A DNA stretch of 64,000 bases, taken from NCBI RefSeq assembly GCF_050920415.1, contig NZ_CP169309.1. One strand, 5' to 3'. How positions within the stretch are numbered: the first letter of the stretch is position 1; every line of letters starts with the position of its first letter. Below are positions 44,301-61,830 of this stretch, one piece after another. Position numbers and translations under genes: made by a program. The notes below the pieces were generated by a model. It made no database searches. It had not been told where the DNA came from and was given only the letters and a program-made list of their open reading frames with translations. The DNA is from Escherichia coli. Lineage in GTDB: Bacteria; Pseudomonadota; Gammaproteobacteria; Enterobacterales; Enterobacteriaceae.

Positions 44301-45023
44301 TTAATCCTGCAACGCATAGGTTACGGTGGTGACTACGCGTACCGTTTTATTAATCGCCGTAGGATCATCTTCATCACTGCCACTGGCGAAGATCTGGAAC
44401 ACGCCTTGTGAGGCATCGCTAATTGACCCCACCTGGCTACCTGAGTCCGTTGCAAATTGTAATGCTGCGTTGCGTGCATCTTTGGTGGCGGCGGCAATCA
44501 TCTCAGCGCGCAGTGCGCCAATACCATTAAAGCGATAGGCGACTTTGCTCTCAGCGATAGCGCCCTCCGTAGCGACTTGCAGTTCGTTTAATTTCGCGAC
44601 GACTTTTTCGACAGCAGCAACATTATGGGTTTTTATCGTCACTGACCCGTCTGCGTTATAGCGTGGCATTGTGGGATCATCTTTCAGATAAAAGGAATCA
44701 GTTCGCTTGCTTGTCCATTGGCCCAGGGTTATCTCTTTCTCGTTAATCCCCTGAGCATTGAGTTCGGCAACAATTTTTTTCTGCGCGTCTTCCAGTTTCG
44801 GGAACAGTTCGCCGGGTATATTACCCTTAAAGTTAATCGCAATTGTTAATTCTGCCGTATCTGCGCGAACTTCTTTTTCAGAAAGCCCACGCACATTTAC
44901 ATAACGGTTATTGGTTTTTAAATGTTTAACACCATCGCCAACAAAATAACCACAGGCGCTAATCCCCAGTCCGAGGACGATAGCGGCAATTAAAGAGGGG
45001 GCCTTATTCACTGATGACTCCAT
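44301..45023 (-). CDS. Hypothetical exported or membrane-anchored protein, SIMPL/DUF541-like (about 239 aa; ORF extends to 45113)
   Basis: ORF track 44301..45113 (-); N-terminal hydrophobic segment APSLIAAIVLGLGISACGYFV; resemblance to SIMPL proteins (BP26/YggE type) is by eye only; a gene here is not expected from K-12 order. Confidence 0.55.
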   Translation of the reverse strand: MESSVNKAPSLIAAIVLGLGISACGYFVGDGVKHLKTNNRYVNVRGLSEKEVRADTAELTIAINFKGNIPGELFPKLEDAQKKIVAELNAQGINEKEITLGQWTSKRTDSFYLKDDPTMPRYNADGSVTIKTHNVAAVEKVVAKLNELQVATEGAIAESKVAYRFNGIGALRAEMIAAATKDARNAALQFATDSGSQVGSISDASQGVFQIFASGSDEDDPTAINKTVRVVTTVTYALQD

Positions 45024-45126
45024 ATCAGATGCTAAATGAGCAAGGGAATGTAGTGGAGAGAGGGAGTGAAAGACAGTCCGATTCAGGAGTGTGGCCGACA
45101 GCATATCGGCCACATTTTTGCAGGAT

Positions 45127-47811: not shown

Positions 47812-48855
47812 ATGAGCGAGAACTCGATTCGTTTGACCCAATACAGCCACGGTGCAGGTTGCGGCTGTAAAATTTCCCCAAAAGTGTTGGAAACCATCCT
47901 GCACAGTGAGCAGGCGAAGTTTGTTGATCCGAATTTGCTTGTGGGTAATGAAACCCGCGACGATGCGGCGGTGTACGATCTGGGCAATGGCACCAGCGTT
48001 ATCAGTACCACCGACTTCTTTATGCCGATCGTTGATAATCCTTTCGATTTTGGCCGCATTGCGGCGACTAACGCCATCAGCGATATCTTCGCGATGGGTG
48101 GCAAACCGATTATGGCGATTGCGATCCTCGGCTGGCCTATTAACAAACTTTCCCCTGAAATTGCCCGCGAAGTAACCGAAGGTGGACGCTATGCATGCCG
48201 TCAGGCGGGTATTGCGCTGGCTGGCGGTCACTCCATCGATGCGCCGGAGCCGATTTTTGGTCTGGCGGTAACGGGGATCGTACCGACCGAGCGGGTGAAG
48301 AAAAACAGTACTGCACAAGCCGGATGCAAACTGTTCCTGACGAAACCGCTGGGAATTGGCGTTCTTACTACGGCTGAGAAAAAATCACTGCTGAAACCAG
48401 AACATCAGGGACTAGCGACGGAAGTGATGTGCCGGATGAACATCGCAGGCGCGTCCTTTGCCAACATCGAAGGCGTAAAAGCGATGACTGACGTGACTGG
48501 TTTTGGTCTGCTGGGGCATTTGAGCGAAATGTGTCAGGGTGCTGGTGTGCAGGCGCGAGTCGACTATGAAGCGATCCCGAAACTGCCAGGGGTTGAAGAG
48601 TACATTAAGTTGGGCGCAGTGCCTGGCGGCACCGAACGTAACTTTGCCAGCTATGGGCATCTGATGGGTGAAATGCCGCGTGAAGTGCGCGATCTGCTGT
48701 GCGATCCGCAAACTTCTGGCGGTCTGCTGCTGGCGGTCATGCCGGAAGCAGAAAATGAGGTCAAAGCTACAGCCGCCGAGTTTGGCATTGAACTGACGGC
48801 GATTGGCGAACTGGTGCCAGCGCGCGGCGGTCGTGCCATGGTTGAGATTCGTTAA
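47812..48855 (+). CDS. selD: Selenide, water dikinase (selenophosphate synthetase) SelD
   Basis: ORF track 47806..48855; N-terminal HGAGCGCK with catalytic Cys. Confidence 0.9.
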
Positions 48856-48859
48856 GTCG

Positions 48860-50815
48860 ATGCGGTTGTTTATTGCCGAAAAACCGAGTCTGGCGCGCGC
48901 CATTGCTGATGTCCTGCCCAAACCGCACCGGAAAGGCGATGGCTTTATCGAGTGCGGTAATGGCCAGGTGGTGACCTGGTGTATCGGTCACCTGCTTGAG
49001 CAGGCGCAGCCAGACGCCTACGACAGTCGCTATGCGCGCTGGAACCTGGCCGATCTCCCCATTGTCCCGGAAAAGTGGCAATTACAGCCCCGACCCTCCG
49101 TGACTAAACAACTTAATGTCATCAAACGCTTTCTGCATGAAGCCAGCGAAATCGTTCACGCCGGTGACCCGGACCGTGAAGGGCAATTACTGGTAGATGA
49201 AGTGCTGGACTACCTGCAACTGGCACCGGAAAAGCGCCAGCAGGTGCAGCGTTGCTTGATCAACGACCTGAACCCGCAGGCGGTTGAACGGGCGATCGAT
49301 CGTCTTCGTTCCAATAGCGAGTTTGTACCGCTGTGCGTTTCCGCGCTGGCGCGAGCGCGTGCCGACTGGCTGTACGGCATCAATATGACCCGCGCGTACA
49401 CCATTCTCGGTCGTAATGCGGGTTATCAGGGCGTGCTTTCCGTGGGACGCGTGCAGACGCCCGTGCTCGGGCTGGTGGTGCGCCGCGATGAAGAGATTGA
49501 AAACTTCGTGGCGAAAGACTTCTTTGAAGTCAAAGCGCATATCGTGACACCTGCCGATGAGCGGTTTACCGCTATCTGGCAACCGAGCGAAGCGTGTGAA
49601 CCGTACCAGGATGAAGAAGGGCGCTTGTTACATCGTCCGCTGGCGGAGCATGTAGTTAACCGCATCAGCGGCCAACCGGCTATTGTCACCAGCTATAACG
49701 ATAAACGGGAATCAGAATCCGCACCGCTGCCGTTTTCGCTTTCGGCGTTGCAGATTGAAGCGGCTAAACGCTTTGGTCTGAGTGCGCAGAACGTGCTTGA
49801 TATCTGCCAGAAGTTGTACGAAACGCACAAGCTAATCACTTATCCGCGTTCCGATTGTCGCTATCTGCCAGAAGAGCATTTTGCCGGACGCCACGCAGTG
49901 ATGAATGCCATCAGCGTTCATGCACCGGGCTTGTTACCGCAGCCAGTGGTCGATCCAGATATACGCAACCGCTGCTGGGATGACAAAAAGGTCGATGCAC
50001 ACCACGCCATCATCCCGACCGCGAGGAGTTCTGCCATCAACCTGACGGAAAACGAGGCGAAGGTCTATAACCTGATTGCTCGTCAGTATTTGATGCAGTT
50101 CTGTCCGGACGCGGTGTTCCGCAAGTGTGTTATCGAACTGGACATTGCCAAAGGCAAATTTGTCGCTAAAGCCCGTTTTCTTGCTGAAGCAGGCTGGCGC
50201 ACACTGTTAGGCAGCAAAGAGCGCGATGAAGAAAACGACGGCACGCCGCTGCCTGTGGTGGCGAAAGGCGATGAGTTGCTGTGTGAAAAAGGTGAAGTGG
50301 TAGAGCGGCAAACCCAGCCGCCGCGCCATTTTACCGATGCAACACTGCTTTCGGCGATGACCGGGATCGCGCGCTTTGTTCAGGACAAAGATCTGAAAAA
50401 GATCCTTCGTGCCACCGATGGTCTGGGGACAGAAGCAACCCGTGCCGGGATTATTGAACTGTTGTTCAAGCGTGGCTTTCTGACCAAAAAAGGGCGCTAT
50501 ATCCACTCCACCGACGCCGGAAAAGCGTTATTCCATTCGCTGCCAGAAATGGCTACGCGACCGGACATGACCGCGCACTGGGAATCGGTGCTGACGCAAA
50601 TCAGCGAAAAGCAGTGTCGCTATCAGGACTTTATGCAACCGTTGGTGGGGACGCTGTATAAGTTGATTGATCAGGCCAAACGTACGCCGGTGCGGCAGTT
50701 TCGCGGCATAGTGGCTCCAGATGGAGGAGAAGGAAATAAAAAGACTTCACCCCGTAAGCGAGCAGCGAAAAAAAGCCCGCCAGCAGCAGAGGCGGGCAGT
50801 GGAGTGATAATGTAA
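48860..50815 (+). CDS. topB: DNA topoisomerase III
   Basis: ORF track 48803..50815; start trimmed to [12 protein letters not shown] (Toprim N-terminus). Confidence 0.9.
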
Positions 50816-50837
50816 TGCTCTGATGCAGTCAGTTTTC

Positions 50838-50872
50838 GTAGGCCAGATAAGGCGTTCACGCCGCATCTGGCA
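50838..50872. repeat. REP element in topB-gdhA convergent spacer
   Basis: GTAGGCCAGATAAGGCGTTCACGCCGCATCTGGCA, close to canonical REP sequence. Confidence 0.7.
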
Positions 50873-50898
50873 TAAACGCCTGAAACGGCGCTAATGAC

Positions 50899-52477: not shown

Positions 52478-52750
52478 GTGAGTCGAGCATTGTTCGCCCT
52501 AGCATTGGCATTTCCATTCATTGCACTGGCTAACCCGCATTATCGTCCGGACGTGGAGGTAAACGTACCGCCTGAAGTATTCAGTTCAGGCGGGCAGTCA
52601 GCGCAGCCCTGTACTCAGTGCTGCGTCTATCAGGATCAAAACTATTCTGAAGGGGCGGTAATTAAAGCCGAAGGAATACTGCTGCAATGCCAGCGGGATG
52701 ACAAAACTCTTAGCACTAATCCGCTGGTCTGGCGGCGCGTAAAGCCATAA
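52478..52750 (+). CDS. ynjH: Secreted small protein YnjH (DUF1496), GTG start
   Basis: ORF track 90 aa; signal peptide; 3' end overlaps nudG 3' end. Confidence 0.7.
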   Translation: MSRALFALALAFPFIALANPHYRPDVEVNVPPEVFSSGGQSAQPCTQCCVYQDQNYSEGAVIKAEGILLQCQRDDKTLSTNPLVWRRVKP

Positions 52751-53123
52751 ACGCCTCTAATAGTGGAATGTCAGCAGGGGCCAGCGGATATTGCAGCGCC
52801 TCTTCAGGTGAGCACCAGACCAGCGCCTGATGTTCATGTGCCTGTAACGTCCCGTGGAAGTCGGGTACGTGCCAGGCATGAAGATGGATAATCCGCCCCG
52901 ACACTTCTCGCTGATGGCTGGCAACATACTCACCCACAGTTGCTTCGATGCCCAATTCTTCGCGTAACTCACGCACCAGCGCCTGCCGCTGGCTTTCATC
53001 CGGCTCGACTTTACCACCGGCAAACTCCCATAATCCCGCCTGATCGCTATGGGCGGGGCGTTGAGCGAGTAAAATTTTGCCATCACGTTCGATGATGGCG
53101 GCAACAACTTCAATCATATTCAT
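52716..53123 (-). CDS. nudG: Nudix hydrolase NudG (CTP/5-methyl-dCTP pyrophosphohydrolase)
   Basis: ORF track 135 aa; Nudix box GGKVEPDESQRQALVRELREELGI. Confidence 0.85.
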   Translation of the reverse strand: MNMIEVVAAIIERDGKILLAQRPAHSDQAGLWEFAGGKVEPDESQRQALVRELREELGIEATVGEYVASHQREVSGRIIHLHAWHVPDFHGTLQAHEHQALVWCSPEEALQYPLAPADIPLLEAFMALRAARPAD

Positions 53124-53209
53124 AAATTACACACGGGCAGATAAGCGAAAAATGCCATAATATCCGCACTGTTGCTCAATCAGAAAGGCTTTATATTTAA
53201 GGAGTGCCT

Positions 53210-53830
53210 GTGTTAGACCGCCATCTTCATCCCCGAATTAAACCTTTGTTGCATCAGTGTGTGAAGGTTCTGGATAAACCTGGTATCACGCCAGATGGTT
53301 TAACGTTAGTGGGGTTTGCTATCGGCGTGTTGGCATTGCCGTTTCTGGCACTGAGCTGGTATCTGGCGGCGCTGATTGCCATTTTACTAAACAGATTGCT
53401 TGATGGTCTGGACGGCGCGCTGGCACGGCGTCGAGGCCTCACCGACGCAGGCGGCTTTCTCGATATCTCGTTGGATTTCCTTTTTTACGCGCTGGTGCCT
53501 TTTGGGTTTATCCTCGCCGCACCGGAGCAAAACGCGCTGGCAGGCGGCTGGCTGCTGTTTGCGTTTATCGGCACGGGCAGCAGTTTTCTCGCTTTTGCTG
53601 CGCTGGCGGCGAAACATCAGATTGATAATCCCGGTTATGCGCATAAATCGTTTTATTATCTGGGCGGGTTAACCGAAGGCAGCGAGACGATTTTGCTGTT
53701 TGTTCTGAGTTGTCTCTTGCCGGCTTATTTTCCGTGGTTTGCGTGGATATTTGGCGCGCTGTGCTGGATGACGACCTTTACGCGGGTGTGGAGTGGATAT
53801 CTGACGCTGAAGTCGCTCCAGCGTCAGTAG
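53210..53830 (+). CDS. ynjF: CDP-alcohol phosphatidyltransferase-family membrane protein YnjF, GTG start
   Basis: ORF track 53204..53830; AGGAG SD 5 nt before GTG at 53210; DGxxAR motif. Confidence 0.8.
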   Translation: MLDRHLHPRIKPLLHQCVKVLDKPGITPDGLTLVGFAIGVLALPFLALSWYLAALIAILLNRLLDGLDGALARRRGLTDAGGFLDISLDFLFYALVPFGFILAAPEQNALAGGWLLFAFIGTGSSFLAFAALAAKHQIDNPGYAHKSFYYLGGLTEGSETILLFVLSCLLPAYFPWFAWIFGALCWMTTFTRVWSGYLTLKSLQRQ

Positions 53831-53838
53831 TTGCAATG

Positions 53839-55146
53839 TTATTTGCTGCTGTCCGGGCCGCGCTCACCGGTTGCTACGGGATTTTTCGGATCGCTGCTCC
53901 ATTCGTACCAGCCGCCGTCGTAAACGGAGACGTTATTCCAGCCCATTGCTCGTGCGTACATAAAGGTTTCGGACGCGCGCCAGCCGGTGCCGCAGTAGAA
54001 TGAAACTTGCTGATCTGGTTTGATATTCCATGCTTTCCACATAGCGGCAATATCATCGGCGCTACGCATGGTGCCATCCGGGTTATGGAAATCCTCCATA
54101 TGCGTCGAGTCGCTACCAGCGTGTCCCCAACGGGCTCCGGCTATTTCACCTTTTGGCTTAATATAGCTGTAACCACTGGTCGTACCGATAAATTCTGGCC
54201 ACGAACGAATGCTCACCAGCGATGCATCCTGGCGATGCAGCAGCCCACGGGCCTGTTCCATATCAAGCATCAACTGCGGTTGCGCCGGGATCTTCACGCC
54301 GAAATCCGGTTCAGCTTTCACTTTCGGTGGCGTTCCGCGCTCAACAGGCAGTCCCGCGTCGGACCAGGTTTGCCAGCCGCCGTCCAGCAGGCGCACATCT
54401 TTCACCCCTGCATAGAGCATAATCTGTGCTACACGCGCTGCTGCGTATACATCACGACCATATAGAATCACCGTGGTGTCATGACGAATGCCATGTTTTG
54501 CCAGCATCGCTTTCAGTTGTTCATCAGAGACTTTATTCCACAGCGGTTCGCTTTCCACTTCATTGGTATCGATGTAATCCGCGCCGGGAATATGGCTGAT
54601 AAGGTAAAGCTTAGGAGCGCCCCAGGCCGCTTCAATGACTTTCCAGTCACCGGCAGGTTTCGCTGTAACGTCTTTTCCTTGTTGCAGGTCATGCAGCCAT
54701 TGCGGATAAACCAGCTGCTCAAAGTGCGGCAGTTTTTGCAGACGGGAAGGTTCGCTTAGCGCGTCACTCAAAATGGAGATATGCGTAAAACCTGCTTTTT
54801 GCAGTCGCGTTTTGACGGCGTCGACATCTTTGTCATTACCGTACAGCGCCACCGGAGCGTCGGTTTTCAGGTTATGTTGCTTGATCCACGCGTTGAGCTG
54901 TTCGGTGCTCATTTTGTCGAGCCAGCTAGCAGAGAGGTTTAAGGCGGCAGGTTCATGACCAGAAGGGCCATTTAAGGTTTGTGGCCAGCCGTTATAAAAC
55001 GCGCTGGGGCGAGTATCTATCGCTTTGCCATTTTGTTGTTGAAGCTGGTCAAGTGTAAGAGGCTTCGCCAGTTCAGCGGCCCACGAAGAAGCGCAAGCCA
55101 GCCCTAAAGCCATTGCCAGCGCGGTCATTTGAGAAACACGTTTCAT
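53839..55146 (-). CDS. ynjE: Periplasmic multi-domain rhodanese (thiosulfate sulfurtransferase) YnjE
   Basis: ORF track 53839..55161; signal peptide; rhodanese active-site Cys (YCGTGWRAS). Confidence 0.85.
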   Translation of the reverse strand: MKRVSQMTALAMALGLACASSWAAELAKPLTLDQLQQQNGKAIDTRPSAFYNGWPQTLNGPSGHEPAALNLSASWLDKMSTEQLNAWIKQHNLKTDAPVALYGNDKDVDAVKTRLQKAGFTHISILSDALSEPSRLQKLPHFEQLVYPQWLHDLQQGKDVTAKPAGDWKVIEAAWGAPKLYLISHIPGADYIDTNEVESEPLWNKVSDEQLKAMLAKHGIRHDTTVILYGRDVYAAARVAQIMLYAGVKDVRLLDGGWQTWSDAGLPVERGTPPKVKAEPDFGVKIPAQPQLMLDMEQARGLLHRQDASLVSIRSWPEFIGTTSGYSYIKPKGEIAGARWGHAGSDSTHMEDFHNPDGTMRSADDIAAMWKAWNIKPDQQVSFYCGTGWRASETFMYARAMGWNNVSVYDGGWYEWSSDPKNPVATGERGPDSSK

Positions 55147-55212
55147 CGAAAATCCCGACATTGTAGTTTTGAGTGCGCCATTCTGAACTGACGCATTGGG
55201 AAAAACTTTGCG

Positions 55213-55866
55213 TTATCGCAGTTTGTTGTAATTTTCTGACCACTGCGCCATATCCAGAACAGAACTATCAGCAGGAACATCCTGGATATCGTGCGTTACC
55301 TGAACGACGGGGATCGCCATGGCGCGAATTTCGCTGAACACCCACTGGCGAAAATTATCGCGCAGAGCCACATCAAGACGGCTGAACGGCTCATCCAGGA
55401 GTAACGCTCTTGGCTGGGCGAGAAGGGCGCGTAGCAGAGCAACGCGCGCTCGCTGACCGCCAGACAAAGTGGCAGGATCCTGATGGAAAGCTCCGTCAAG
55501 GCCTGAACGCTCAAGTGCATCATTCACGGCATTACGTCGGGCATTCCCCTTAAGTGTCTCCGGTAGCGCCAGCAGTAAATTTTGCCCGACGCTGAACTGG
55601 TCAAATAACAGTGCATCCTGGAAAAGAATGCCAATCTGACGCTGTGCGGTGGGTTGCATGTCAATCCGTTGCTCATTGAGCCATAGCTCACCTGCACAAG
55701 AAAACTGTCCGGCCAGCGCACCAATCATCCATGAAAACAGTGTAGATTTTCCACAGCCAGACGGCCCCATTAACGTGACAATGTCACCTTTATCCACCGT
55801 AAAGTTAACGTTTGTCAGCAAGCGGCTTTCTGGTAAACGTAGCGAAACATTTTTCACGCAGAGCAT
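55213..55866 (-). CDS. ynjD: ABC transporter ATP-binding protein YnjD
   Basis: ORF track 55213..55953; Walker A GPSGCGKST, signature LSGGQRARV; start overlaps ynjC stop. Confidence 0.85.
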   Translation of the reverse strand: MLCVKNVSLRLPESRLLTNVNFTVDKGDIVTLMGPSGCGKSTLFSWMIGALAGQFSCAGELWLNEQRIDMQPTAQRQIGILFQDALLFDQFSVGQNLLLALPETLKGNARRNAVNDALERSGLDGAFHQDPATLSGGQRARVALLRALLAQPRALLLDEPFSRLDVALRDNFRQWVFSEIRAMAIPVVQVTHDIQDVPADSSVLDMAQWSENYNKLR

Positions 55867-57401
55867 TAGCGGAGTCCTTGTCTGACATAACCTACCCATT
55901 TTGCGACTAACGCGGTCAGGGCAAAAATAATAAGCGGCAACAGTAGTTGCCATAAAGCCTGGGCGGCGAGAATGCCGTTGCTGCCGCCGCTGCTTAATGC
56001 CACCGCTTCAGTGGTGAGCGTCGGAAAACGCCCCGCGCCCAGCCACAGAGTCGGCATATACTGCGCAATACTGACTGAAAATCCTACCGCGAAGGCAATC
56101 AGCGCAGGGCGCAACATGAGTGGGCATTTCACGTAAAAGAAGATTTTGGCCCGCGACCAGCCCAGTGTTTGCGCAATCAAAATTAACCGTGAATCAATGC
56201 GCTGCCAGGCGGGTTGCAGGATAAACAGCATCCACGGCATTACCCACAGCAGATGCCCCCAGACCACCGCTGTCCAGCTCCCATCTATGTTCAGCCATAG
56301 CGCCAGCATGTACTGGCCCGCCACCAGCGGCAGAGCGGGTAATAAAATGGGCAACCAGAGCCACAACTGGCGACGCTTTGCCCCCCATTCCAGCCACAGC
56401 AGTAACAGGACCAAAGCGATAAACGTCGCCACCAGCCCCATTGTCAGGCTGTTGATGAGCGCTTCACTATTGATCGTCGACTGATCCGCGAGGATCGCCA
56501 GCAGAACCACACACAGCACACCGGTTAAGGGTAAAAAACTCGCCAGTGTATTGCCGGGTAATAAAGGCGTGGCGGGCTTACGAACGCCATCTACGCGGGG
56601 AATGGTGCACTGCCAGGCGCGCCAAAGTAAATAGCCCAGCAAAACGTAGACGGCGAGTAACAGCATCAGCAGCAGGCTGGCGAGTGCGCCTTTCATCTGT
56701 TGATCGGCGTCGCCTTGGGTTAACCACTGCCAGCTAATTACCGCCAGCGTCGGTGGATTACCCGGCCCGAGAATAATTGCCACATCCACGACCGACAACG
56801 ACCATGCCACAATAGCCAGCATCGCCATTGCCAGTGCAGGCGCGACGGAGGGCAACAACAACCAGTTCAGACATTGCCAGCGGCTGTAGCCCAGCGAATC
56901 CAGTACAATAACCTGCTGCAACAGCCGTTTCTCGCTCAATACTGCCGCTAAGATCCACAGCAGAAATGCGCTTTCTTTCACCGCCAGGGTAAGGCCCAGC
57001 CCAATACCCAATTTATCCATCGGCGGAGTGAGAAAAGGAAAAACCTGATAAACCAGGCCACCTTCAGCAAACAGCAACAGGGCGCTGGTGGCAAAAGCCA
57101 CATGGGGAATGGCGAGCAGCCACGGCAGACGGGCGCACATACGCTGCCATTTCGGCCCAGGCCACAGCGCCATAATTACCAGCAGGGCAATCGTCAATGC
57201 GCCGAGCGCCGCGATGGTTGTTGACACCAGTGTTGCCAGTAAGGCCTGCGGTAGCTGCGGATCGGCAAATAACGCCTGCCAGTGTGCCAACGACAAAGCA
57301 GGCGATATCAGCGTGAGAGCTGCCGGGATCAGCGGTGCATAAATCACCGCCACCATCGCCCACAGCAACAAGATTAATGCGTACCGTAACGGTGTAGCCA
57401 T
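55866..57401 (-). CDS. ynjC: ABC transporter permease YnjC (fused double permease)
   Basis: ORF track 55866..57425; multi-TM. Confidence 0.85.
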   Translation of the reverse strand: MATPLRYALILLLWAMVAVIYAPLIPAALTLISPALSLAHWQALFADPQLPQALLATLVSTTIAALGALTIALLVIMALWPGPKWQRMCARLPWLLAIPHVAFATSALLLFAEGGLVYQVFPFLTPPMDKLGIGLGLTLAVKESAFLLWILAAVLSEKRLLQQVIVLDSLGYSRWQCLNWLLLPSVAPALAMAMLAIVAWSLSVVDVAIILGPGNPPTLAVISWQWLTQGDADQQMKGALASLLLMLLLAVYVLLGYLLWRAWQCTIPRVDGVRKPATPLLPGNTLASFLPLTGVLCVVLLAILADQSTINSEALINSLTMGLVATFIALVLLLLWLEWGAKRRQLWLWLPILLPALPLVAGQYMLALWLNIDGSWTAVVWGHLLWVMPWMLFILQPAWQRIDSRLILIAQTLGWSRAKIFFYVKCPLMLRPALIAFAVGFSVSIAQYMPTLWLGAGRFPTLTTEAVALSSGGSNGILAAQALWQLLLPLIIFALTALVAKWVGYVRQGLR

Positions 57402-58540
57402 TCTTGTTCCAGCGCATTTACCCAACCTGCGTGCGGTTCAGCCAGTACCGGCGGCAGATCCTGCGGCATTCTTGATTGCAATATTTCATGCTGCCCGTCA
57501 GGCAGTTTTTGCGGATCGAGAACCGATGGATCGCCCCAGACAGCAGGGTCTGCTTTACGTAGCTGTGCATCAGGTGAGAGCAGGAAATTGGCAACCACCT
57601 TCGCCGCAGCACTGGCATTCGCGTTAGCAGGAATGGTGACAAAATGCACGTTGCCAATCATCCCCTCGTTAAAACCAAAACTGTAACTGCTTGCCGGCAA
57701 ATCGCCACTGGCGATTTTTTGCTGGGCATGTGCAGGATTAAAGGTCAGCGACAGGCGCAATGTGCCAGCTTTCAGCAGAGCATCCATCCGCGCGGGCGAA
57801 GGTGGGAAATCCTTTCCTTCGCGCCATAAATACGGATGCAGCGCATCAAGATATTGCCACAAGGGCGCAGTGATACGGGCGAAAGTCGCATCGTTCGGCG
57901 CTTCTTTTAATGCTGCGGGATCTGGCGTCAGCATAATCAGTAACTGTTCAAGAAATGCGGTGCCAGTAAAGTCTGGCGGGCGCGGATAGGTAACCGTGCC
58001 AGGATTGGCTGTAGCAAATTCCAGTAAGGCTTGCGGTGTTTGTGGTGGCTGTGGCGTAACATCGCGGCGGGCGATAAACGTCAGTTGAGCGCCGCCCCAC
58101 GGCGATTCTGCGCCTTCGACAGGTACAGAAAAATCTTCCCGTACCGGCAGTTGTGTATCGACATAACGCCAGTTTGGCAGAGTCTCAGCCCAGCCGGTTT
58201 GCAGTAAATTGGCCTCTTTTAAAGTGCGGAAGTTTTCGCCGTTCACCCAGAGCAGATCCACCGAACCGCCTGTCTCGCGCCCGGCTGCGGCTTCGGTCTG
58301 AATGCGCTTCACCGCGTCTGCGGCATCCGCCAGGCGGACAATCTTCAGGTTTATATCATAATGGGTTTTCATCTCGCCGCTAACCCAGTCGAGATAGCGG
58401 TTAATTGCGGTATCGCCGCCCCAGGCGTTAAACCAGACGGTTTGCCCTTTGGCCTCATTTTTAACTTCCTGCCAGTCACTGGCATGTGTTGCCAGAGAAA
58501 ACAGCGATAACAATCCCAGCAACCACCCACAATGGCGCAT
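57374..58540 (-). CDS. ynjB: ABC transporter periplasmic substrate-binding protein YnjB
   Basis: ORF track 57374..58543; signal peptide. Confidence 0.85.
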   Translation of the reverse strand: MRHCGWLLGLLSLFSLATHASDWQEVKNEAKGQTVWFNAWGGDTAINRYLDWVSGEMKTHYDINLKIVRLADAADAVKRIQTEAAAGRETGGSVDLLWVNGENFRTLKEANLLQTGWAETLPNWRYVDTQLPVREDFSVPVEGAESPWGGAQLTFIARRDVTPQPPQTPQALLEFATANPGTVTYPRPPDFTGTAFLEQLLIMLTPDPAALKEAPNDATFARITAPLWQYLDALHPYLWREGKDFPPSPARMDALLKAGTLRLSLTFNPAHAQQKIASGDLPASSYSFGFNEGMIGNVHFVTIPANANASAAAKVVANFLLSPDAQLRKADPAVWGDPSVLDPQKLPDGQHEILQSRMPQDLPPVLAEPHAGWVNALEQEWLHRYGTH

Positions 58541-58549
58541 CATCTCTCC

Positions 58550-59098
58550 TTAAGAACGTTTTTCAGGAATACGGCACAGCCCCTGAGCGGGAATGTCCAT
58601 GGCAGAATTAAAACGGGCTGACAGATTTTGCAGGCCGATCAATGCCGTCAGTTCGGTGAGCGCCTGGGCGTCAAAATGCGCAGCCAGTCGGGTACGCAGG
58701 GCATCATCGACCGTTGGCGGCGTTACGCTGGCGGCTTCGGCGTACTCCAGCGCCAGCCGTTCTTCATCGCTAAAGAGCGGGCTTTGCCGCCAGTCAGCCA
58801 CTGCCAGCAACTTATCGGTGCTGCCGGTACGCTCGGCGACTTTCATACTGGTGATATCCACGCAAAACTCACACAGGCACATTTGCGCAATGCGCGCGCT
58901 GACAAGCGATCGCACTACCGGATCGAGCGGTGAGCGTTTACGCTCCAGCCAACCGACAAACATCGACACCAGATAAAAGATAAACGGGATCCGTCCCCAC
59001 CAGCGAATTGGACTTAGCACCTCGCCGTAATGGCGACGATGCAGCCACGCCTGCGGACGTAAACTTAAAGGAATTTTGCTAAGCGGTGGTAAACCCAT
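58550..59098 (-). CDS. ynjA: Carboxymuconolactone decarboxylase (AhpD-like) family protein YnjA
   Basis: ORF track 182 aa; CxxC-containing AhpD-like sequence. Confidence 0.8.
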   Translation of the reverse strand: MGLPPLSKIPLSLRPQAWLHRRHYGEVLSPIRWWGRIPFIFYLVSMFVGWLERKRSPLDPVVRSLVSARIAQMCLCEFCVDITSMKVAERTGSTDKLLAVADWRQSPLFSDEERLALEYAEAASVTPPTVDDALRTRLAAHFDAQALTELTALIGLQNLSARFNSAMDIPAQGLCRIPEKRS

Positions 59099-59802
59099 CA
59101 GGCATTCCTCTTCTGGCGTTCAAGCCATATTTTTTTCGCCATAAAAATCACCACGGTCAGGGCAAACAGAATAAACAGTCCGGTGACAAACCAGAAGGTA
59201 CCGCCCGTTAACATACTGCCCGCCCAGGAATAAACAATAGTCGCCGGTAACTGACCAAGCCCGGTGGCGATAAAAAACGAGCGAAAACGTATTGACGTCA
59301 AACCGGCAGCATAGCTGATTGGATCGAAAGGGACAAAAGGCAATAACCGGCATACCAGGATAGTGTGTTTGCCGTAGCGAGTGAAAAAGCCGTCCATACT
59401 GTCAAGCATGGTTTTACCGGTTAATTTTTCCACCACTTCGCGGCCCATTACTCTGGCGATAAAAAAGCATAGCGCCGCGCCCGCCATAGAACTGGTCCAC
59501 GACAGCAAGCCGCCCCAGAACGCGCCAAACAGCGACGCATTGGCAAAGGTGATCAAAAATGCAGGCAGCGGTGCAGCAATGGCCTGTAAGATCATTAAAA
59601 AGAATGAGACCAGTGCAGCCTGCGTGCCGTAAGACGCAATAAAGCGTTCAATGCCTTGTTGATCCACGGCGGCAAAGGCTACAAGGCTGCTGTTAATAAA
59701 CTCATAAACGCCGGGAATCAGCGCCCATGCGAGCAGCGCAACAATTAACAAGATGATAATGACGCCACGCCAGAGCCACATTTTACGGTTTTTATCTCTC
59801 AT
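59098..59802 (-). CDS. ydjZ: DedA/TVP38-family inner-membrane protein (YdjZ-like)
   Basis: ORF track 234 aa; stop overlaps ynjA start by 1 nt. Confidence 0.8.
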   Translation of the reverse strand: MRDKNRKMWLWRGVIIILLIVALLAWALIPGVYEFINSSLVAFAAVDQQGIERFIASYGTQAALVSFFLMILQAIAAPLPAFLITFANASLFGAFWGGLLSWTSSMAGAALCFFIARVMGREVVEKLTGKTMLDSMDGFFTRYGKHTILVCRLLPFVPFDPISYAAGLTSIRFRSFFIATGLGQLPATIVYSWAGSMLTGGTFWFVTGLFILFALTVVIFMAKKIWLERQKRNA

Positions 59803-59805
59803 CTT

Positions 59806-60510
59806 TCATCTTTGTTGTTCGGTTAAAGAGGTTTTATCAGAAGTGGTCAGTGCCACTTGTTTGTAACGGGCGTAGCATTTAGCAAGCTGAATAAGAATAA
59901 ACAGTATTAGCCCTGCCAGACAAAGTTTGAAAATAAATGATAATGTTATGCCTTCAGTAACAAGGTCGCTGGCCATAAAAGTATAAATAAAGATCCCCGG
60001 CAGAGTCGTGAATGCCGAAATAAAGGTATATGGCCAAAAGGCAATGGCGGTTAATCCGTAGGCGTAATTTTGAATATTGTAAGGAAATAGCGGAATTAAG
60101 CGGGTAAGAATAAGAAAATCGATACCGTTACGTGCAATCCCTTTCTCAATAGACTGAAAGACGGTGGTATCCCCAACATATTTCAGCACCAGTTCTCGCC
60201 CCATCCAGCGAGCAATCAAAAAGGAAACCGACGAAGCGAGCGTTGCTGCAACTAACGAAAGCAGAGTCCCCAAGAATGGACCAAAAATAATGCCACTGCC
60301 AATGACCAGGACACTACCGGGCAGCAGCAGAAGAGTGGCAATAACAAATAACAGAATATAAAGGCTGTAACCGAAAATACCACTCTGGCGAATAAGTGCC
60401 TGCAAGTGAGGAAGATCGCTAATGAAATTGAATATGCCTGAAGCATAAACAAGATAAATTGCCAGAGCAAAAGTCAGACTACCAACAACGAACTTACACT
60501 CAGCTTTCAT
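59806..60510 (-). CDS. ydjX: DedA/TVP38-family inner-membrane protein (YdjX-like)
   Basis: ORF track 234 aa; paralog of adjacent gene; stop 3 nt before ydjZ start. Confidence 0.75.
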   Translation of the reverse strand: MKAECKFVVGSLTFALAIYLVYASGIFNFISDLPHLQALIRQSGIFGYSLYILLFVIATLLLLPGSVLVIGSGIIFGPFLGTLLSLVAATLASSVSFLIARWMGRELVLKYVGDTTVFQSIEKGIARNGIDFLILTRLIPLFPYNIQNYAYGLTAIAFWPYTFISAFTTLPGIFIYTFMASDLVTEGITLSFIFKLCLAGLILFILIQLAKCYARYKQVALTTSDKTSLTEQQR

Positions 60511-60666
60511 CGTGGAGATTTCCTATATCAAGCCTTGATAATAGAGAAGTGAAAAACGCGATGACGGTATAACAAACCTAAGCTGGTCACAAATCCTTAC
60601 TGCCAGTTTCTTGATTATCCTCAAGAATCGGCCTCCTGACCTGGAGGATGTCAGGAGGCTGCGTCA

Positions 60667-61473
60667 TTAGCGGCGGAAGGTCGCCCACACAGGCGCGTGA
60701 TCGGACGGTTTTTCCATGCTGCGGATTTCATAGTCGATGCCGGTTTCTACGCAACAGTCTGCCAGCGGTTGGCTGGCGAGCAGCAGGTCGATACGCAGAC
60801 CACGGTTATCGTCAAAACCTTTTGAGCGGTAATCAAACCATGAGAAACGATCTGCTGTTTCCGGATTCGCATGGCGGAAGGTATCCACCAGCCCCCAACT
60901 TATCAGCCTGTCCATCCATTCACGTTCTTCAGGCAGGAAAGAACATTTACCAGTACGCAGCCAGCGTTTGCGGTTCTCTTCGCCAATGCCGATATCCAGG
61001 TCGGTGGGGCTGATATTCATATCGCCCATAATCAGCACCGGATTTTCACGCTTGAGTTCGGTTTCCAAATAATTTTGCAGATTCTGATAAAACTGCGCCT
61101 TCGCCGGGAATTTTATCGGATGGTCGCGGCTTTCACCCTGCGGGAAGTAACCGTTGATCACGGTGACATTGCCCAGCGGCGAGGGGATTTCCGCCATAAT
61201 AATTCGCCGCTGCGCCTCTTCGCCGTCGTCAGGGAAGCCGCGACGCACGGCAATCGGCGTCTCTTTGGTCAGCAGCGCCACGCCATAATGGCCTTTCTGC
61301 CCGTGATAAAACACGTTGTAGCCGAGCTTCGCCACCTCTTCGAGCGGAAACATATCGTCATGAACTTTTGTCTCCTGCAGGCCAATCACATCCGGTTGGT
61401 GCTTTTCGACGATGGCTTCAAGCTGGTGAGGTCTGGCGCGCAGGCCGTTGATATTAAAAGAGACAAATTTCAT
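60667..61473 (-). CDS. xthA: Exodeoxyribonuclease III (268 aa)
   Basis: ORF track 60667..61485; start trimmed to [14 protein letters not shown]. Confidence 0.95.
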
Positions 61474-61830
61474 AGTCGCTGCCATTTATTCAGATAAAGA
61501 GTGCGTGGATGGTAGCAGAATTTCGCTTTGCTTACCGCCTGTTGTTAAGTGATTTGATCGATGGTTGTTAATGATGTCAACGATGGCGCAAAAAATGCCC
61601 GCTTTTGGTGCGCGCTGCGTCAGAATGGCGCAGTAATTTCCAGTAAATTTCGTCAATGATCACAATTCCAGAATTATATTTTACTTCTGCATAACATTGC
61701 GTTTTTTATTCTTTTTATTCACCTGCATCGCAAACGTATTCACTTTATATGCACTTTAAATGCATATGGTTTGGTTATAACTCCTTGATTTCCAGTTAGC
61801 CACCGCGGTTTATGCACTTTTATCACTGGC

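What the first reader, a model, noticed from the sequence alone, without database searches (positions are those of the whole stretch)
53839..60510. ydjX-ydjZ-ynjA-ynjB-ynjC-ynjD operon plus periplasmic rhodanese ynjE: candidate sulfur-compound uptake/trafficking module
Six co-directional genes with overlapping or near-overlapping stop/start codons: two DedA membrane proteins, an AhpD/CMD-like CxxC protein, and an ABC importer (binding protein, fused permease, ATPase). The ATPase is followed by a periplasmic multi-domain rhodanese (ynjE), and the selenophosphate synthetase gene selD lies about 5 kb away. The gene content suggests handling of a sulfur (or selenium) species such as thiosulfate or persulfide, but the substrate is, to my knowledge, not established.
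Basis: inference. Interest (0 to 1): 0.4.

Follow-up and report, generated by a model that had tools for sequence, protein, structure and literature searches.

The report
Importer–phospholipid–sulfur/selenium envelope gene module
The gene cluster is real and is the E. coli copy of a module found in distant bacteria that joins one ABC importer to a phospholipid head-group enzyme, lipid scramblases and sulfur/selenium redox proteins, which suggests an undescribed envelope pathway rather than simple thiosulfate uptake.

Summary
ydjX, ydjZ, ynjA, ynjB, ynjC and ynjD are intact, tightly coupled and under purifying selection. They lie on the minus strand, followed by ynjE. This strain lacks ydjY, which 5353 of 5426 E. 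coli genomes carry.

Published data show FNR activates both ydjX–ynjD and ynjE. They also share an anaerobic expression module with yedEF, proposed to serve Mo/Se usage. No substrate has been reported.

YnjB is not like sulfate or thiosulfate binders. Its relatives bind polyamines, opines, phosphonates, iron, thiamin or sugars.

It sits directly downstream in 37 of 48 non-enteric loci and is fused to YnjB in a Desulfovibrionaceae contig. DedA scramblases and an interchangeable Cys or Fe-S redox protein also recur. YnjE-type rhodaneses and SelD or its usual fusion partner appear in several lineages.

Best reading (about 0.4): the importer supplies a hydroxyl-bearing, probably S/Se-containing compound. 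YnjF attaches it to phospholipid and DedA proteins flip it. Redox and rhodanese partners then service it.

Rival: a selenium acquisition route to SelD.

The parts
60611..60624 (-). FNR-type box TTGAGGATAATCAA upstream of ydjX, centred about 107 nt before the ATG
   Evidence: One mismatch to TTGATnnnnATCAA. The half-sites are conserved in K-12 (TTGAGAAAAATCAA) although the surrounding block is only about 75% identical. Published FNR ChIP places a site at -60.5 of ydjXYZ-ynjABCD (PMC3688515). A TATACC -10-like hexamer at about 60566-60571 fits that spacing (inference).
59806..60510 (-). ydjX, a DedA/VTT (COG0398-type) membrane protein, present here as a rare divergent allele
   Evidence: Pfam VTT_dom 9.7e-25. 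Only 73% identical to K-12 YdjX, with dS 1.36 and dN/dS 0.12. The window-type allele occurs in about 70 of 5426 genomes.
59098..59802 (-). ydjZ, the second DedA/VTT membrane protein
   Evidence: Pfam VTT_dom 2.5e-24. It is 52-59% identical to VTT proteins in remote low-GC and Desulfovibrionaceae copies of the module.
58550..59098 (-). ynjA, an AhpD/CMD-fold protein with a CEFC motif and no TM segment or signal peptide
   Evidence: Pfam CMD 5e-09. The best NCBIfam hit is a YciW-related (seleno)protein, 5.8e-29 but below the cut-off. PDB relatives are CMD/AhpD-family proteins. C76-E-F-C79 is present and the same CEFC is kept in the Photobacterium homologue. dN/dS is 0.04.
57374..58540 (-). ynjB, the periplasmic substrate-binding protein (COG4134 family)
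   Evidence: SBP_bac_8 and NCBIfam PRK11622 at 3.7e-167. Signal peptide ...LATHA/SDWQ. The AlphaFold model has pLDDT 94.9. Fold neighbours are PhnS, PotD, FbpA, AfuA, TbpA, MalE and UgpB.
55866..57401 (-). ynjC, a fused double permease with 12 predicted TM segments
   Evidence: BPD_transp_1 matches the C-terminal half. The best NCBIfam hit is the PhnU2 fused permease. Hydropathy gives 12 segments.
55213..55866 (-). ynjD, a short ABC ATPase of 217 aa with no C-terminal regulatory domain
   Evidence: ABC_tran 2.4e-29. The nearest models are PhnT2, sulfate ATPase and ThiQ, all below their cut-offs. Walker A and signature motifs are present.
55160..55187 (-). sigma-70-like hexamers TTCAGA-16-TACAAT in the ynjD-ynjE gap, a candidate ynjE promoter
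   Evidence: Consensus scan only, 9 of 12 matches, and the number of such sites in the region is no higher than in shuffles. The literature reports an FNR-dependent ynjE promoter. No FNR box with two or fewer mismatches is seen here.
53839..55146 (-). ynjE, a periplasmic three-domain rhodanese
   Evidence: Three rhodanese stretches. Signal peptide and active-site loop C385-GTGWR. 98.6% amino-acid identity to K-12 and dN/dS 0.03. A 41%-identical lipoprotein rhodanese with the same CGTGWR loop sits in the remote module L083.
53210..53830 (+). ynjF, a CDP-alcohol phosphatidyltransferase-family membrane protein, convergent with ynjE (8 nt between the stops).
   Evidence: Pfam CDP-OH_P_transf 1.2e-10. 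The motif DGLDGALAR-x7-G-x3-D-x3-D can be read in the sequence. A homologue lies directly downstream of ynjD on the same strand in 37 of 48 non-enteric loci. It is adjacent in 6 remote loci and fused in frame to a YnjB-like SBP in P0199.
47812..48855 (+). selD (selenophosphate synthetase), context only and part of a different operon (ydjA-selD-topB)
   Evidence: RefSeq annotation of the identical strain. SelD or its usual N-terminal fusion partner lies within 10 kb of ynjB homologues in 10 of 61 non-enteric loci.

Best explanation
The window carries the E. coli version of a widely conserved, anaerobically induced envelope module. Its fixed core is the YnjBCD binding-protein-dependent ABC importer, the CDP-alcohol phosphatidyltransferase YnjF, and COG0398 DedA proteins (YdjX, YdjZ).

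Proposed mechanism:
1. Periplasmic YnjB captures a small hydroxyl-bearing compound, and YnjCD import it.
2. YnjF condenses it with CDP-diacylglycerol at the cytoplasmic face, making a minor phospholipid.
3. YdjX and YdjZ move that lipid between leaflets.
4. A redox-active cysteine or Fe-S protein and a periplasmic rhodanese act on a sulfur- or selenium-containing group of that head group or its cargo. Here these are YnjA and YnjE, with YdjY as well in most E. coli. Elsewhere the redox role is taken by a DedA-fused MerA/Lpd-like disulfide reductase, a CCG/HdrB-like protein, a ferredoxin or a C_GCAxxG_C_C protein.
5. In several lineages the module connects to selenophosphate synthesis.

Shown:
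- Gene content and tight coupling.
- FNR control and co-expression with ynjE and yedEF (published).
- The conserved neighbourhoods and the fusions.
- The fold class of YnjB.

Inferred:
- That the imported molecule is YnjF's acceptor.
- That a lipid product exists.
- That DedA proteins flip it.
- That S or Se is the redox-relevant atom.
For: (1) ynjF is the most constant partner of ynjBCD.
- It is directly downstream of ynjD on the same strand in 37 of 48 non-enteric loci across Burkholderiales, Neisseriales, Vibrionales, Aeromonadales, Rhizobiales and Desulfobacterota. It is present in nearly every enteric locus that extends far enough.
- CDP-OH_P_transf lies next to YnjB homologues of only 31-37% identity in L083, L087, L088, L093, L094 and L098.
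- There is an in-frame YnjF::signal-anchor::YnjB fusion, P0199, in a contig whose RpoA is 84-86% identical to Mailhella/Desulfovibrionaceae.

(2) Other YnjB-like SBPs are fused to lipid head-group or lipid-carrier enzymes: PEMT/ICMT and GT2. FA_hydroxylase and APH-family alcohol kinases are also neighbours.

(3) VTT/DedA genes accompany the importer in 22 of 61 non-enteric loci and in all six remote modules. COG0398 DedAs are argued to be phospholipid scramblases (bioRxiv 10.1101/2023.01.04.522824).

(4) The redox slot is always filled, but by non-homologous proteins:
- YnjA with CEFC.
- YdjY, 41% identical in L093, with a conserved C-x2-C-x3-C motif.
- DedA::PNDR fusions in 18 of 61 loci.
- CCG, Fer4 and C_GCAxxG_C_C proteins.

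(5) Chalcogen links:
- A rhodanese with YnjE's CGTGWR loop in L083.
- TIGR03169 Nterm_to_SelD and/or SelD in 10 of 61 loci, with Nterm_to_SelD lying directly beside the ynjB operon on the same strand in several (L024, L049, L053, L068). NADH-dehydrogenase-like::SelD is the commonest SelD fusion (PMC4561486).
- The E. coli iModulon shared with yedEF.

(6) The YnjF catalytic motif is intact and every gene is under purifying selection.
Against: - No lipid product is known, and nothing here identifies the ligand.
- The YnjB fold neighbours span sugars, phosph(on)ates, polyamines, iron and thiamin at 9-17% identity, so the fold does not say 'alcohol'.
- In E. coli, ynjF is on the opposite strand, convergent with ynjE. 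It is not among the 11 genes of the published iModulon, and the ynjE-ynjF pair is listed as an excludon. Co-expression of ynjF with the importer is therefore unproven and may even be antagonistic.
- Nine of 48 non-enteric loci lack ynjF nearby, and several remote YnjB homologues are orphans or sit in other contexts.
- DedA::reductase fusions could equally mean that DedA transports a reducible ion, by analogy with MerT/MerA.
- The related loci are the 80 best of at least 578, so the sample is biased toward relatives of the E. coli protein.
Confidence: 0.4

Rival explanations
1. Selenium (or sulfane-sulfur) acquisition route with no lipid product. Periplasmic YnjE and YdjY capture Se or S. YnjBCD and/or the DedA proteins bring a selenium species across the membrane. 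YnjA, or the DedA-fused or CCG reductases elsewhere, reduce it to selenide for SelD. YnjF has only an accessory or unrelated membrane role.
For: - SelD or Nterm_to_SelD lie within the neighbourhood in 10 of 61 non-enteric loci from three orders, some directly beside the ynjB operon on the same strand.
- selD is 5 kb away in E. coli, and this arrangement is conserved in enterics.
- The genes share an iModulon with yedEF, with Mo/Se usage proposed by the authors.
- FNR activation fits the anaerobic need for selenoprotein formate dehydrogenases (established knowledge).
- GR/TrxR-type reductases are known to reduce selenite adducts (established knowledge).
- YnjA's best model is a (seleno)protein family, and YnjE weakly matches ExtH and rhodanese (seleno)protein models.
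Against: - It does not explain why ynjF is the single most conserved partner and is even fused to YnjB.
- It does not explain the PEMT, GT2 and FA_hydroxylase associations.
- Most loci (51 of 61) have no SelD-related gene within 10 kb.
- The YnjB family shows no similarity to oxyanion binders.
- The NCBIfam selenium-flavoured hits are all below their cut-offs.
Confidence: 0.25
2. One reading: uptake of thiosulfate, persulfide or a similar inorganic sulfur species for sulfur assimilation, working with the cys regulon.
For: - A rhodanese next to an ABC importer.
- Weak permease and ATPase similarity to CysT and CysA (5e-05 and 2.9e-38, both far below their cut-offs).
- Genetic-interaction clustering with suf genes.
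Against: - YnjD lacks the C-terminal domain of CysA, being only 217 aa.
- YnjE has poor thiosulfate and 3-mercaptopyruvate sulfurtransferase activity and hardly raises cellular sulfane sulfur from thiosulfate (PMC10215317).
- Regulation is by FNR and an anaerobic iModulon. No CysB link was found in the papers read.
- E. coli already has CysPUWA and YeeE/YeeD for thiosulfate (established knowledge).
Confidence: 0.07
3. An ordinary nutrient importer, as in the KEGG-style label 'putative thiamine transport' or a polyamine, opine or phosphonate system. The neighbours are functionally unrelated.
For: - Fused permease and short ATPase as in ThiP and ThiQ.
- ThiQ, PhnT2 and PhnU2 are among the best NCBIfam hits.
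- PhnS, PotD, agropine SBP and TbpA are among the best structural and profile matches.
- One source names a homologue 'putative thiamine transport system substrate-binding protein'.
Against: - All those matches are below family cut-offs and at 9-17% identity.
- No TPP riboswitch or any Rfam element lies in 52500-61800.
- The same non-transport partners (YnjF, DedA, a redox protein) recur across phyla and in gene fusions. Chance synteny cannot explain this.
Confidence: 0.1
4. YnjE is a cytoplasmic molybdopterin-synthase sulfurtransferase (its current K-12 product name) and merely sits beside an unrelated transporter.
For: - K-12 annotation 'molybdopterin synthase sulfurtransferase'.
- Cited as such by the FNR and ICA papers.
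Against: - YnjE has a signal peptide and is treated as periplasmic. Activity assays used a construct with the signal sequence deleted.
- ΔynjE has normal Moco-dependent HAP and chlorate phenotypes (PMC3831636).
- A YnjE-type lipoprotein rhodanese recurs inside the remote module L083.
Confidence: 0.08

Closest known systems
ThiBPQ thiamin importer and PhnSTUV / PotABCD-type importers (polyamine-opine-phosphonate and thiamin ABC families)
   Same: - Binding-protein-dependent type I ABC importer.
- Fused 12-TM permease as in ThiP and PhnU2, and a short ATPase as in ThiQ.
- YnjB's best profile and fold matches are agropine SBP, SpuD/E, PotD, PhnS, FbpA and TbpA.
   Different: - All hits are far below family cut-offs, at 9-17% identity. 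YnjB is about 60-70 residues longer than those SBPs.
- There is no TPP riboswitch.
- None of those systems travels with a CDP-alcohol phosphatidyltransferase, DedA proteins, rhodaneses or thiol reductases.
Choline uptake plus phosphatidylcholine synthase (Pcs) pathway
   Same: The logic proposed here is the same. A head-group alcohol is taken from outside and condensed directly with CDP-diacylglycerol by a small CDP-alcohol phosphatidyltransferase-family enzyme (established knowledge for Pcs).
   Different: - YnjF is not a Pcs. The NCBIfam Pcs model scores 19 bits against a cut-off of 400. Its nearest models are archaetidylinositol-phosphate and PIP synthases, also below cut-off, and its PDB relatives are remote.
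- The Pcs pathway has no redox, rhodanese or DedA partners.
- The coupling of importer and transferase is inferred here, not shown.
CysPUWA/Sbp sulfate-thiosulfate importer; YeeE/YeeD and YedE/YedF
   Same: - Candidate sulfur/selenium entry routes of E. coli.
- yedEF is co-expressed with this locus.
- Sulfurtransferase partners are present: TusA-like proteins there, a rhodanese here.
   Different: - The binding-protein family is different.
- Permease architecture differs, and the regulon is FNR rather than CysB.
- YeeE and YedE are not ABC systems.
COG0398 DedA / TMEM41B-VMP1 scramblases and DedA::pyridine-nucleotide-disulfide-oxidoreductase fusions
   Same: - YdjX and YdjZ are COG0398 VTT proteins.
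- The DedA::reductase fusion noted as the commonest COG0398 fusion is exactly what sits beside ynjBCDF in 18 of 61 loci.
   Different: - That paper linked the subfamily to aerobic metabolism and did not report the YnjBCD, YnjF, rhodanese or SelD context.
- The E. coli genes are FNR-activated, that is anaerobic.
- No substrate is known for any bacterial COG0398 member.
sHdr/rhodanese/TusA-type sulfane-sulfur relay systems
   Same: Rhodaneses combined with CCG (HdrB-like) and ferredoxin proteins occur in the remote modules.
   Different: - No HdrA/C, DsrE, TusA or lipoate-binding protein was seen.
- The relay here is tied to an importer and to lipid enzymes.

Membership tests
Type I binding-protein-dependent ABC importer | Secreted substrate-binding protein of the SBP_bac_1/8 fold | tested here: met
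Type I binding-protein-dependent ABC importer | Permease with BPD_transp_1 domain(s), and an ATPase with Walker A and the LSGGQ signature | tested here: met
   BPD_transp_1 at 1.1e-06 on residues 346-502, with 12 TM segments. ABC_tran at 2.4e-29, with GPSGCGKS and LSGGQRA. The N-terminal permease half did not reach the Pfam threshold.
Sulfate/thiosulfate importer CysPUWA-Sbp | Binding protein homologous to Sbp/CysP | tested here: not met
Sulfate/thiosulfate importer CysPUWA-Sbp | Two separate permeases (CysT, CysW) and a CysA ATPase that reach the equivalog scores | tested here: not met
   There is a single fused permease. CysT models score 20-23 bits against cut-offs of 246-415. The sulfate ATPase model scores 132 bits against 343.
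Sulfate/thiosulfate importer CysPUWA-Sbp | Membership of the CysB sulfur-starvation regulon | not tested
   The only indication comes from the literature. The papers read place the genes in the FNR regulon and an anaerobic iModulon. No CysB data were examined.
Thiamin importer ThiBPQ | ThiQ, ThiP and TbpA equivalog-level similarity | tested here: not met
   ThiQ models score 131 bits against cut-offs of 245-298. TbpA reaches only E 0.006 with the family profile.
Thiamin importer ThiBPQ | TPP riboswitch control | tested here: not met
   Rfam scan of 52500-61800 at E<=1 gives only a chance tmRNA_permuted hit.
DedA superfamily, COG0398 / TVP38-TMEM64 branch | VTT domain in a multi-pass membrane protein | tested here: met
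   VTT_dom at 1e-24 and 2.5e-24. RefSeq name 'TVP38/TMEM64 family protein'. YdjZ is used as the COG0398 exemplar.
DedA superfamily, COG0398 / TVP38-TMEM64 branch | Lipid scramblase or flippase activity | not testable with these tools
   Inferred from eukaryotic homologues and from residues discussed.
AhpD/CMD-fold thiol oxidoreductases | CMD domain with a CxxC motif | tested here: met
   CMD at 5.1e-09. C76-E-F-C79 is present and CEFC is kept in the Photobacterium homologue. PDB relatives include AhpD and the debrominase Bmp8.
Rhodanese sulfurtransferases | Rhodanese domain with an active-site Cys loop | tested here: met
   Three Pfam Rhodanese stretches and the loop C385-GTGWR. Published assays show only weak thiosulfate and 3-mercaptopyruvate activity.
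CDP-alcohol phosphatidyltransferases (YnjF) | PF01066 domain with D-x2-D-G-x2-A-R...G-x3-D-x3-D | tested here: met
   Pfam hit at 1.2e-10. The sequence reads DGLDGALAR-x7-G-x3-D-x3-D, with a spacer one residue shorter than the PROSITE pattern. The fused homologue P0199 has the canonical x8 spacer.
CDP-alcohol phosphatidyltransferases (YnjF) | Assignment to a characterised subfamily (PgsA, PssA, Pcs, PIPS, AIPS) | tested here: not met
   The best score is 63 bits to archaetidylinositol-phosphate synthase, against a cut-off of 180. Pcs scores 19 against 400. The PDB best is AF2299 at E 0.003.
Selenium utilisation gene set | Physical linkage to SelD or the Nterm_to_SelD domain | tested here: inconclusive
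   TIGR03169 scores 312.9 bits against a cut-off of 310, and Nterm_to_SelD::SelD fusions were identified. Such genes are present in 10 of 61 non-enteric loci, and selD is 5-10 kb away in enterics. Most loci lack them. No genome-wide co-occurrence test was possible.

The most novel reading that the evidence does not exclude
The module builds and operates a lipid-anchored thiol or selenol carrier.
1. YnjBCD supply or recycle the head group.
2. YnjF attaches it to phosphatidate.
3. DedA scramblases shuttle it across the inner membrane.
4. Cytoplasmic reductases recharge it. These are YnjA here, and DedA-fused MerA/Lpd-like, CCG or Fe-S proteins elsewhere.
5. Periplasmic YnjE and YdjY load or unload sulfane sulfur, selenium or reducing equivalents.

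This would be a phospholipid-based chalcogen/redox relay between cytoplasm and periplasm that can feed SelD.
Probability: 0.15. Interest if true: 0.9.

Novelty: new variant of a known kind. Interest (0 to 1): 0.55.

Why it matters
These are nine long-standing E. coli genes of unknown function, in an organism where every test is easy to run. If the importer, YnjF and DedA are truly coupled, three things follow:
- Bacterial COG0398 DedA proteins, an open question, would get their first physiological substrate context.
- An unrecognised, anaerobically made phospholipid would be revealed in E. coli and in gut Desulfovibrionaceae.
- It could explain how periplasmic rhodaneses and selenium or sulfur trafficking connect to the membrane.

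Even the conservative reading has practical value. It corrects database labels ('putative thiamine transport', 'molybdopterin synthase sulfurtransferase'). It also redefines the unit to be studied as ydjX(-ydjY)-ydjZ-ynjABCD + ynjE + ynjF.

Tried and rejected
- A single-sequence AlphaFold model of YnjB was useless (pLDDT 36). It was replaced by an alignment-based model.
- The 46-sequence alignment was too diverse for the search for related loci. A 12-sequence subset worked.
- No regulator motif shared by the ydjX, ynjE, yedE and yjiM upstream regions was found beyond the ydjX FNR box.
- The published FNR site for ynjE could not be recognised by consensus in the window. There is no match with two or fewer mismatches between 55052 and 60611.
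- No riboswitch was found.
- Comparative-selenium papers and a selenoprotein ABC-transport preprint were checked for ynjB, DedA or CDP-alcohol terms, with nothing found. A search combining DedA, CDP-alcohol phosphatidyltransferase, rhodanese and ABC transporter returned nothing relevant, and ynjF is essentially absent from the literature.
- The small unknown ORFs of L083 and L093 (unk158, unk156, unk131) show no similarity to YnjA, YdjY, DUF3047 or META proteins.
- MetH, HrpB, PutA, the DUF692/DUF2063 pair and HslJ-like META neighbours were treated as lineage-specific synteny, not module members.

Full report
**1. The observation**

The window is an Escherichia chromosome. The finding's 6.7 kb is 100% identical to E. 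coli MFDS1022581. It is only 90-95% identical to 5415 of the 5423 complete E. coli genomes that carry the region.

All seven genes are intact ORFs on the minus strand. They coincide with the RefSeq annotation of the identical strain:

| gene | coordinates |
|---|---|
| ydjX | 59806-60510 |
| ydjZ | 59098-59802 |
| ynjA | 58550-59098 |
| ynjB | 57374-58540 |
| ynjC | 55866-57401 |
| ynjD | 55213-55866 |
| ynjE | 53839-55146 |

The junctions are a 3-nt gap, a 1-nt overlap, a 9-nt gap, a 28-nt overlap and a 1-nt overlap. A 66-nt gap then precedes ynjE.

The sequences show the following:
- a CEFC motif in YnjA;
- signal peptides on YnjB and YnjE;
- 12 TM segments in YnjC;
- Walker A and LSGGQ motifs in YnjD;
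- the active-site loop C385-GTGWR in YnjE.

dN/dS against K-12 is 0.03-0.35 for all genes. selD is 5.0 kb from the ynjE stop.

The skipped name ydjY is not an oversight. K-12 has ydjY between ydjX and ydjZ, as do 5353 of 5426 genomes. This strain has only three bases there.

**2. What the literature already says**

- FNR ChIP-seq and RNA-seq list ydjXYZ-ynjABCD (site at -60.5) and ynjE (own promoter, site at -41.5) as directly FNR-activated (PMC3688515).
- The ydjX box is present in the window as TTGAGGATAATCAA at 60611-60624. Its half-sites are conserved although the surrounding DNA is highly diverged. I could not recognise the ynjE site by consensus. A weak sigma-70-like pair lies at 55160-55187.
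- Independent component analysis groups ydjXYZ-ynjABCD, ynjE, yedEF and yjiLM in one anaerobic, FNR-dependent iModulon. The authors propose it relates to Mo and Se usage (PMC7888660).
- A genetic-interaction screen clusters ynjABCDEFI with suf genes (PMC3930520).
- BaeR over-expression mildly induces ynjABCD.
- YnjE is periplasmic and has poor thiosulfate and 3-mercaptopyruvate activity. Its physiological substrate is called unclear (PMC10215317).
- ΔynjE has normal Moco-dependent phenotypes (PMC3831636).
- No paper in the library reports a substrate for YnjBCD, and ynjF is essentially unstudied.

It links the operon to ynjE and to a putative selenium transporter, not to the cys regulon.

**3. 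The binding protein**

YnjB has no sequence relative in the PDB as a single sequence. Its family is moderate in size, with 303 representatives of 50%-identity clusters at E<=1e-30.

A profile of 46 homologues finds, in the PDB, the agropine SBP (1e-6), SpuD/E, PotD, Lmo0810, PhnS, FbpA and TbpA. It finds no Sbp, CysP or ModA even at E<=10.

An alignment-based AlphaFold model (pLDDT 94.9) gave these fold matches:

| program | best matches | call |
|---|---|---|
| Foldseek | PhnS (E 4e-15), then PotD, FbpA/FutA, AfuA, P5PA, TbpA | 51 |

Identities are 9-17%. The fold therefore argues against a sulfate- or thiosulfate-type binder but does not name the ligand. No riboswitch precedes the operon, which removes the only independent support for the 'putative thiamine transport' label.

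**4. Related loci: the main new result**

A scan of one genome per species with a YnjB alignment returned 80 loci, the best of at least 578. I compared them with the E. coli proteins by tblastn and clustered their ORFs.

*ynjF.* Outside Enterobacteriaceae, the gene directly downstream of ynjD on the same strand is a ynjF homologue in 37 of 48 loci with enough sequence. These cover Comamonadaceae and other Burkholderiales, Deefgea, Vibrio, Salinivibrio, Photobacterium, Aeromonas, Rhizobiales and Desulfosediminicola. Two more loci have ynjF elsewhere. In enterics, ynjF lies just beyond ynjE on the opposite strand.

*DedA.* A VTT/DedA gene is present in 22 of 61 non-enteric loci. In 18 loci it is fused or adjacent to a class-I pyridine-nucleotide-disulfide oxidoreductase with a CxxxxC motif, resembling MerA, Lpd and glutathione reductase. 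Among ORFs judged to be in the same operon, Pyr_redox_2, VTT and DUF3047 are the commonest families.

*SelD.* TIGR03169 'Nterm_to_SelD' scores 312.9 bits against a cut-off of 310. It and/or SelD, including two Nterm_to_SelD::SelD fusions, occur in 10 of 61 loci from Burkholderiales, Neisseriales and Rhizobiales. In several (L024, L049, L053, L068) Nterm_to_SelD lies directly beside the ynjB operon on the same strand. This NADH-dehydrogenase-like domain is the commonest fusion partner of SelD (PMC4561486).

*ynjE.* Homologues appear only in the 18 enteric loci of this set.

**5. Remote relatives**

I looked up the contigs of YnjB homologues at 31-37% identity. Six carry the same module:

| locus | gene order |
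|---|---|
| L083 (25% GC) | rhodanese, unknown, SBP, two permeases, ATPase, rhodanese, unknown, rhodanese, ferredoxin, CCG, VTT, VTT, CDP-OH_P_transf |
| L087 | VTT, rhodanese, CCG, CDP-OH_P_transf, SBP, permeases |
| L088 | CDP-OH_P_transf, FA_hydroxylase, disulfide oxidoreductase, VTT, SBP, permeases, ATPase |
| L093 | VTT, CCG, VTT, YdjY (PF27149), small membrane protein, CDP-OH_P_transf, SBP, permeases |
| L094 | VTT, CDP-OH_P_transf, SBP |
| L098 | VTT, VTT, C_GCAxxG_C_C redox protein, CDP-OH_P_transf::SBP fusion |

- The L098 fusion (P0199) is in frame, has an intact catalytic motif, and has a signal-anchor before the SBP. The contig's RpoA is 84-86% identical to Mailhella/Desulfovibrionaceae, so the module crosses phyla.
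- Other YnjB-like SBPs are fused to PEMT/ICMT and GT2 domains. APH-family kinases are occasional neighbours.
- The L093 YdjY is 41% identical to K-12 YdjY and keeps KTGCxxCLDSC.
- A 345-aa L083 rhodanese is a lipoprotein, 41% identical to YnjE, with the same CGTGWR loop.
- E. coli YdjZ is 52-59% identical to the VTT proteins of these remote modules, although YnjB is only 31-37% identical. The enteric module therefore looks assembled from two sources. That is itself evidence that the parts belong together.
- Four remote homologues sit in unrelated contexts (L086, L089/L090, L092, L095), and two contigs were too short to tell.

**6. Interpretation**

Three conclusions follow, in decreasing order of certainty.

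*(a) High confidence.* The functional unit is ydjX(-ydjY)-ydjZ-ynjABCD plus ynjE plus ynjF. It is an envelope module expressed anaerobically.

*(b) Moderate confidence.* Its invariant chemistry is import, phosphatidyl transfer and DedA-mediated lipid movement. ynjF is the most constant partner and can be fused to the SBP. The other fusion partners and neighbours are lipid head-group enzymes.

The simplest reading is that the imported molecule is the acceptor alcohol of YnjF, as in the choline/Pcs route. This step is inferred.

*(c) Moderate confidence.* A redox-active cysteine or Fe-S protein is an obligatory but interchangeable component. AhpD-like, YdjY, DedA-fused reductase, CCG, Fer4 and GCAxxG proteins all fill the role. 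Rhodaneses and SelD-related genes join in several lineages. The head group or its cargo therefore most likely contains sulfur or selenium.

Selenium is favoured by the SelD linkage and the yedEF co-expression. Sulfur is not excluded.

**7. Caveats**

- No product lipid is known.
- In E. coli, ynjF is convergent with ynjE, with 8 nt between the stops. It is not in the published iModulon, and the pair is listed as an excludon. Co-expression is therefore unproven.
- Nine of 48 loci lack ynjF.
- DedA::reductase fusions could mean ion transport plus reduction rather than lipid handling.
- The locus sample is biased toward relatives of the E. coli protein.

**8. Verdict**

The genes themselves are known, as annotated genes of unknown function.

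What is new is the module-level picture: importer, CDP-alcohol phosphatidyltransferase, DedA, an interchangeable thiol/Fe-S redox partner, and rhodanese or SelD. I found no description of it in the accessible literature.

I rate it a new variant of a known kind, with interest 0.55. The most novel reading not excluded is a phospholipid-anchored thiol or selenol relay across the inner membrane (probability about 0.15).

Noticed in passing
window 59600-60700: A sharply bounded divergent cassette. The xthA-ydjX intergenic region, ydjX and the first ~150 nt of ydjZ are only 67-77% identical to K-12, against 94-100% on both sides (ydjX dS 1.36). The ~690-bp ydjY gene is missing. About 70 of 5426 complete E. 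coli genomes carry a window-type ydjX (3 at >=99%, 67 at 90-95%). The allele is no closer to E. albertii, Citrobacter or Kluyvera (63-69%).
   Followed up: partly
window 50815-50897: K-12 has ynjI (DUF1266, 1041 bp) between gdhA and topB. The window has an 82-bp spacer instead, about 1.28 kb shorter than K-12.
   Followed up: partly
window 44301-45113 (- strand): An ORF of up to 270 aa between ansA and sppA lies in an ~840-bp segment with no counterpart in K-12. By eye it resembles SIMPL/YggE-like periplasmic proteins. This was not tested.
   Followed up: no
window 53830-53839: ynjE and ynjF converge with only 8 nt between their stop codons. The pair is listed among E. coli excludons with overlapping convergent transcripts (PMC12288877). 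This could make ynjE and ynjF expression mutually interfering.
   Followed up: partly
window 53210-60510 against K-12: Synonymous divergence varies more than 20-fold along the locus: ynjD 0.06, ynjA 0.12, ynjC 0.20, ynjE 0.20, ynjB 0.26, ydjZ 0.30, ynjF 0.62, ydjX 1.36. This points to a recombination mosaic rather than uniform lineage divergence.
   Followed up: partly
L083 12019-12870; L087 250-876; L093 26-637; L094 162-800; L098 3072-3761: E. coli YdjZ is 52-59% identical, and YnjE 41% identical, to proteins in remote low-GC/Desulfovibrionaceae-type modules whose YnjB is only 31-37% identical. This suggests that ydjX/Y/Z and ynjE reached enterics by transfer from anaerobes and joined a proteobacterial ynjBCDF.
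   Followed up: partly
proteins P0194, P0130 (locus L099 719-2470 for P0194): YnjB-like binding proteins are fused N-terminally to a PEMT/ICMT-type membrane methyltransferase (P0194) and to a GT2 glycosyltransferase domain (P0130). The contexts were too short to interpret.
   Followed up: partly
L044 16408-17205, and L026, L054, L055, L062, L071: A secreted DUF3047 protein repeatedly follows the DedA::disulfide-reductase gene and precedes Nterm_to_SelD or SelD in Burkholderiales loci. Its role is unknown.
   Followed up: no
L048 9342-9788, and L056, L060, L064, L065, L080, L086: In Vibrio-type loci an HslJ-like META-domain lipoprotein gene sits immediately upstream of ynjB. It may be lineage synteny or a further periplasmic partner.
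   Followed up: no
window 60628-60655: A perfect hairpin (GCCTCCTGAC...GTCAGGAGGC) lies right after the xthA stop and only 3 nt before the ydjX FNR box. It is presumably the xthA terminator and insulates the operon promoter.
   Followed up: no
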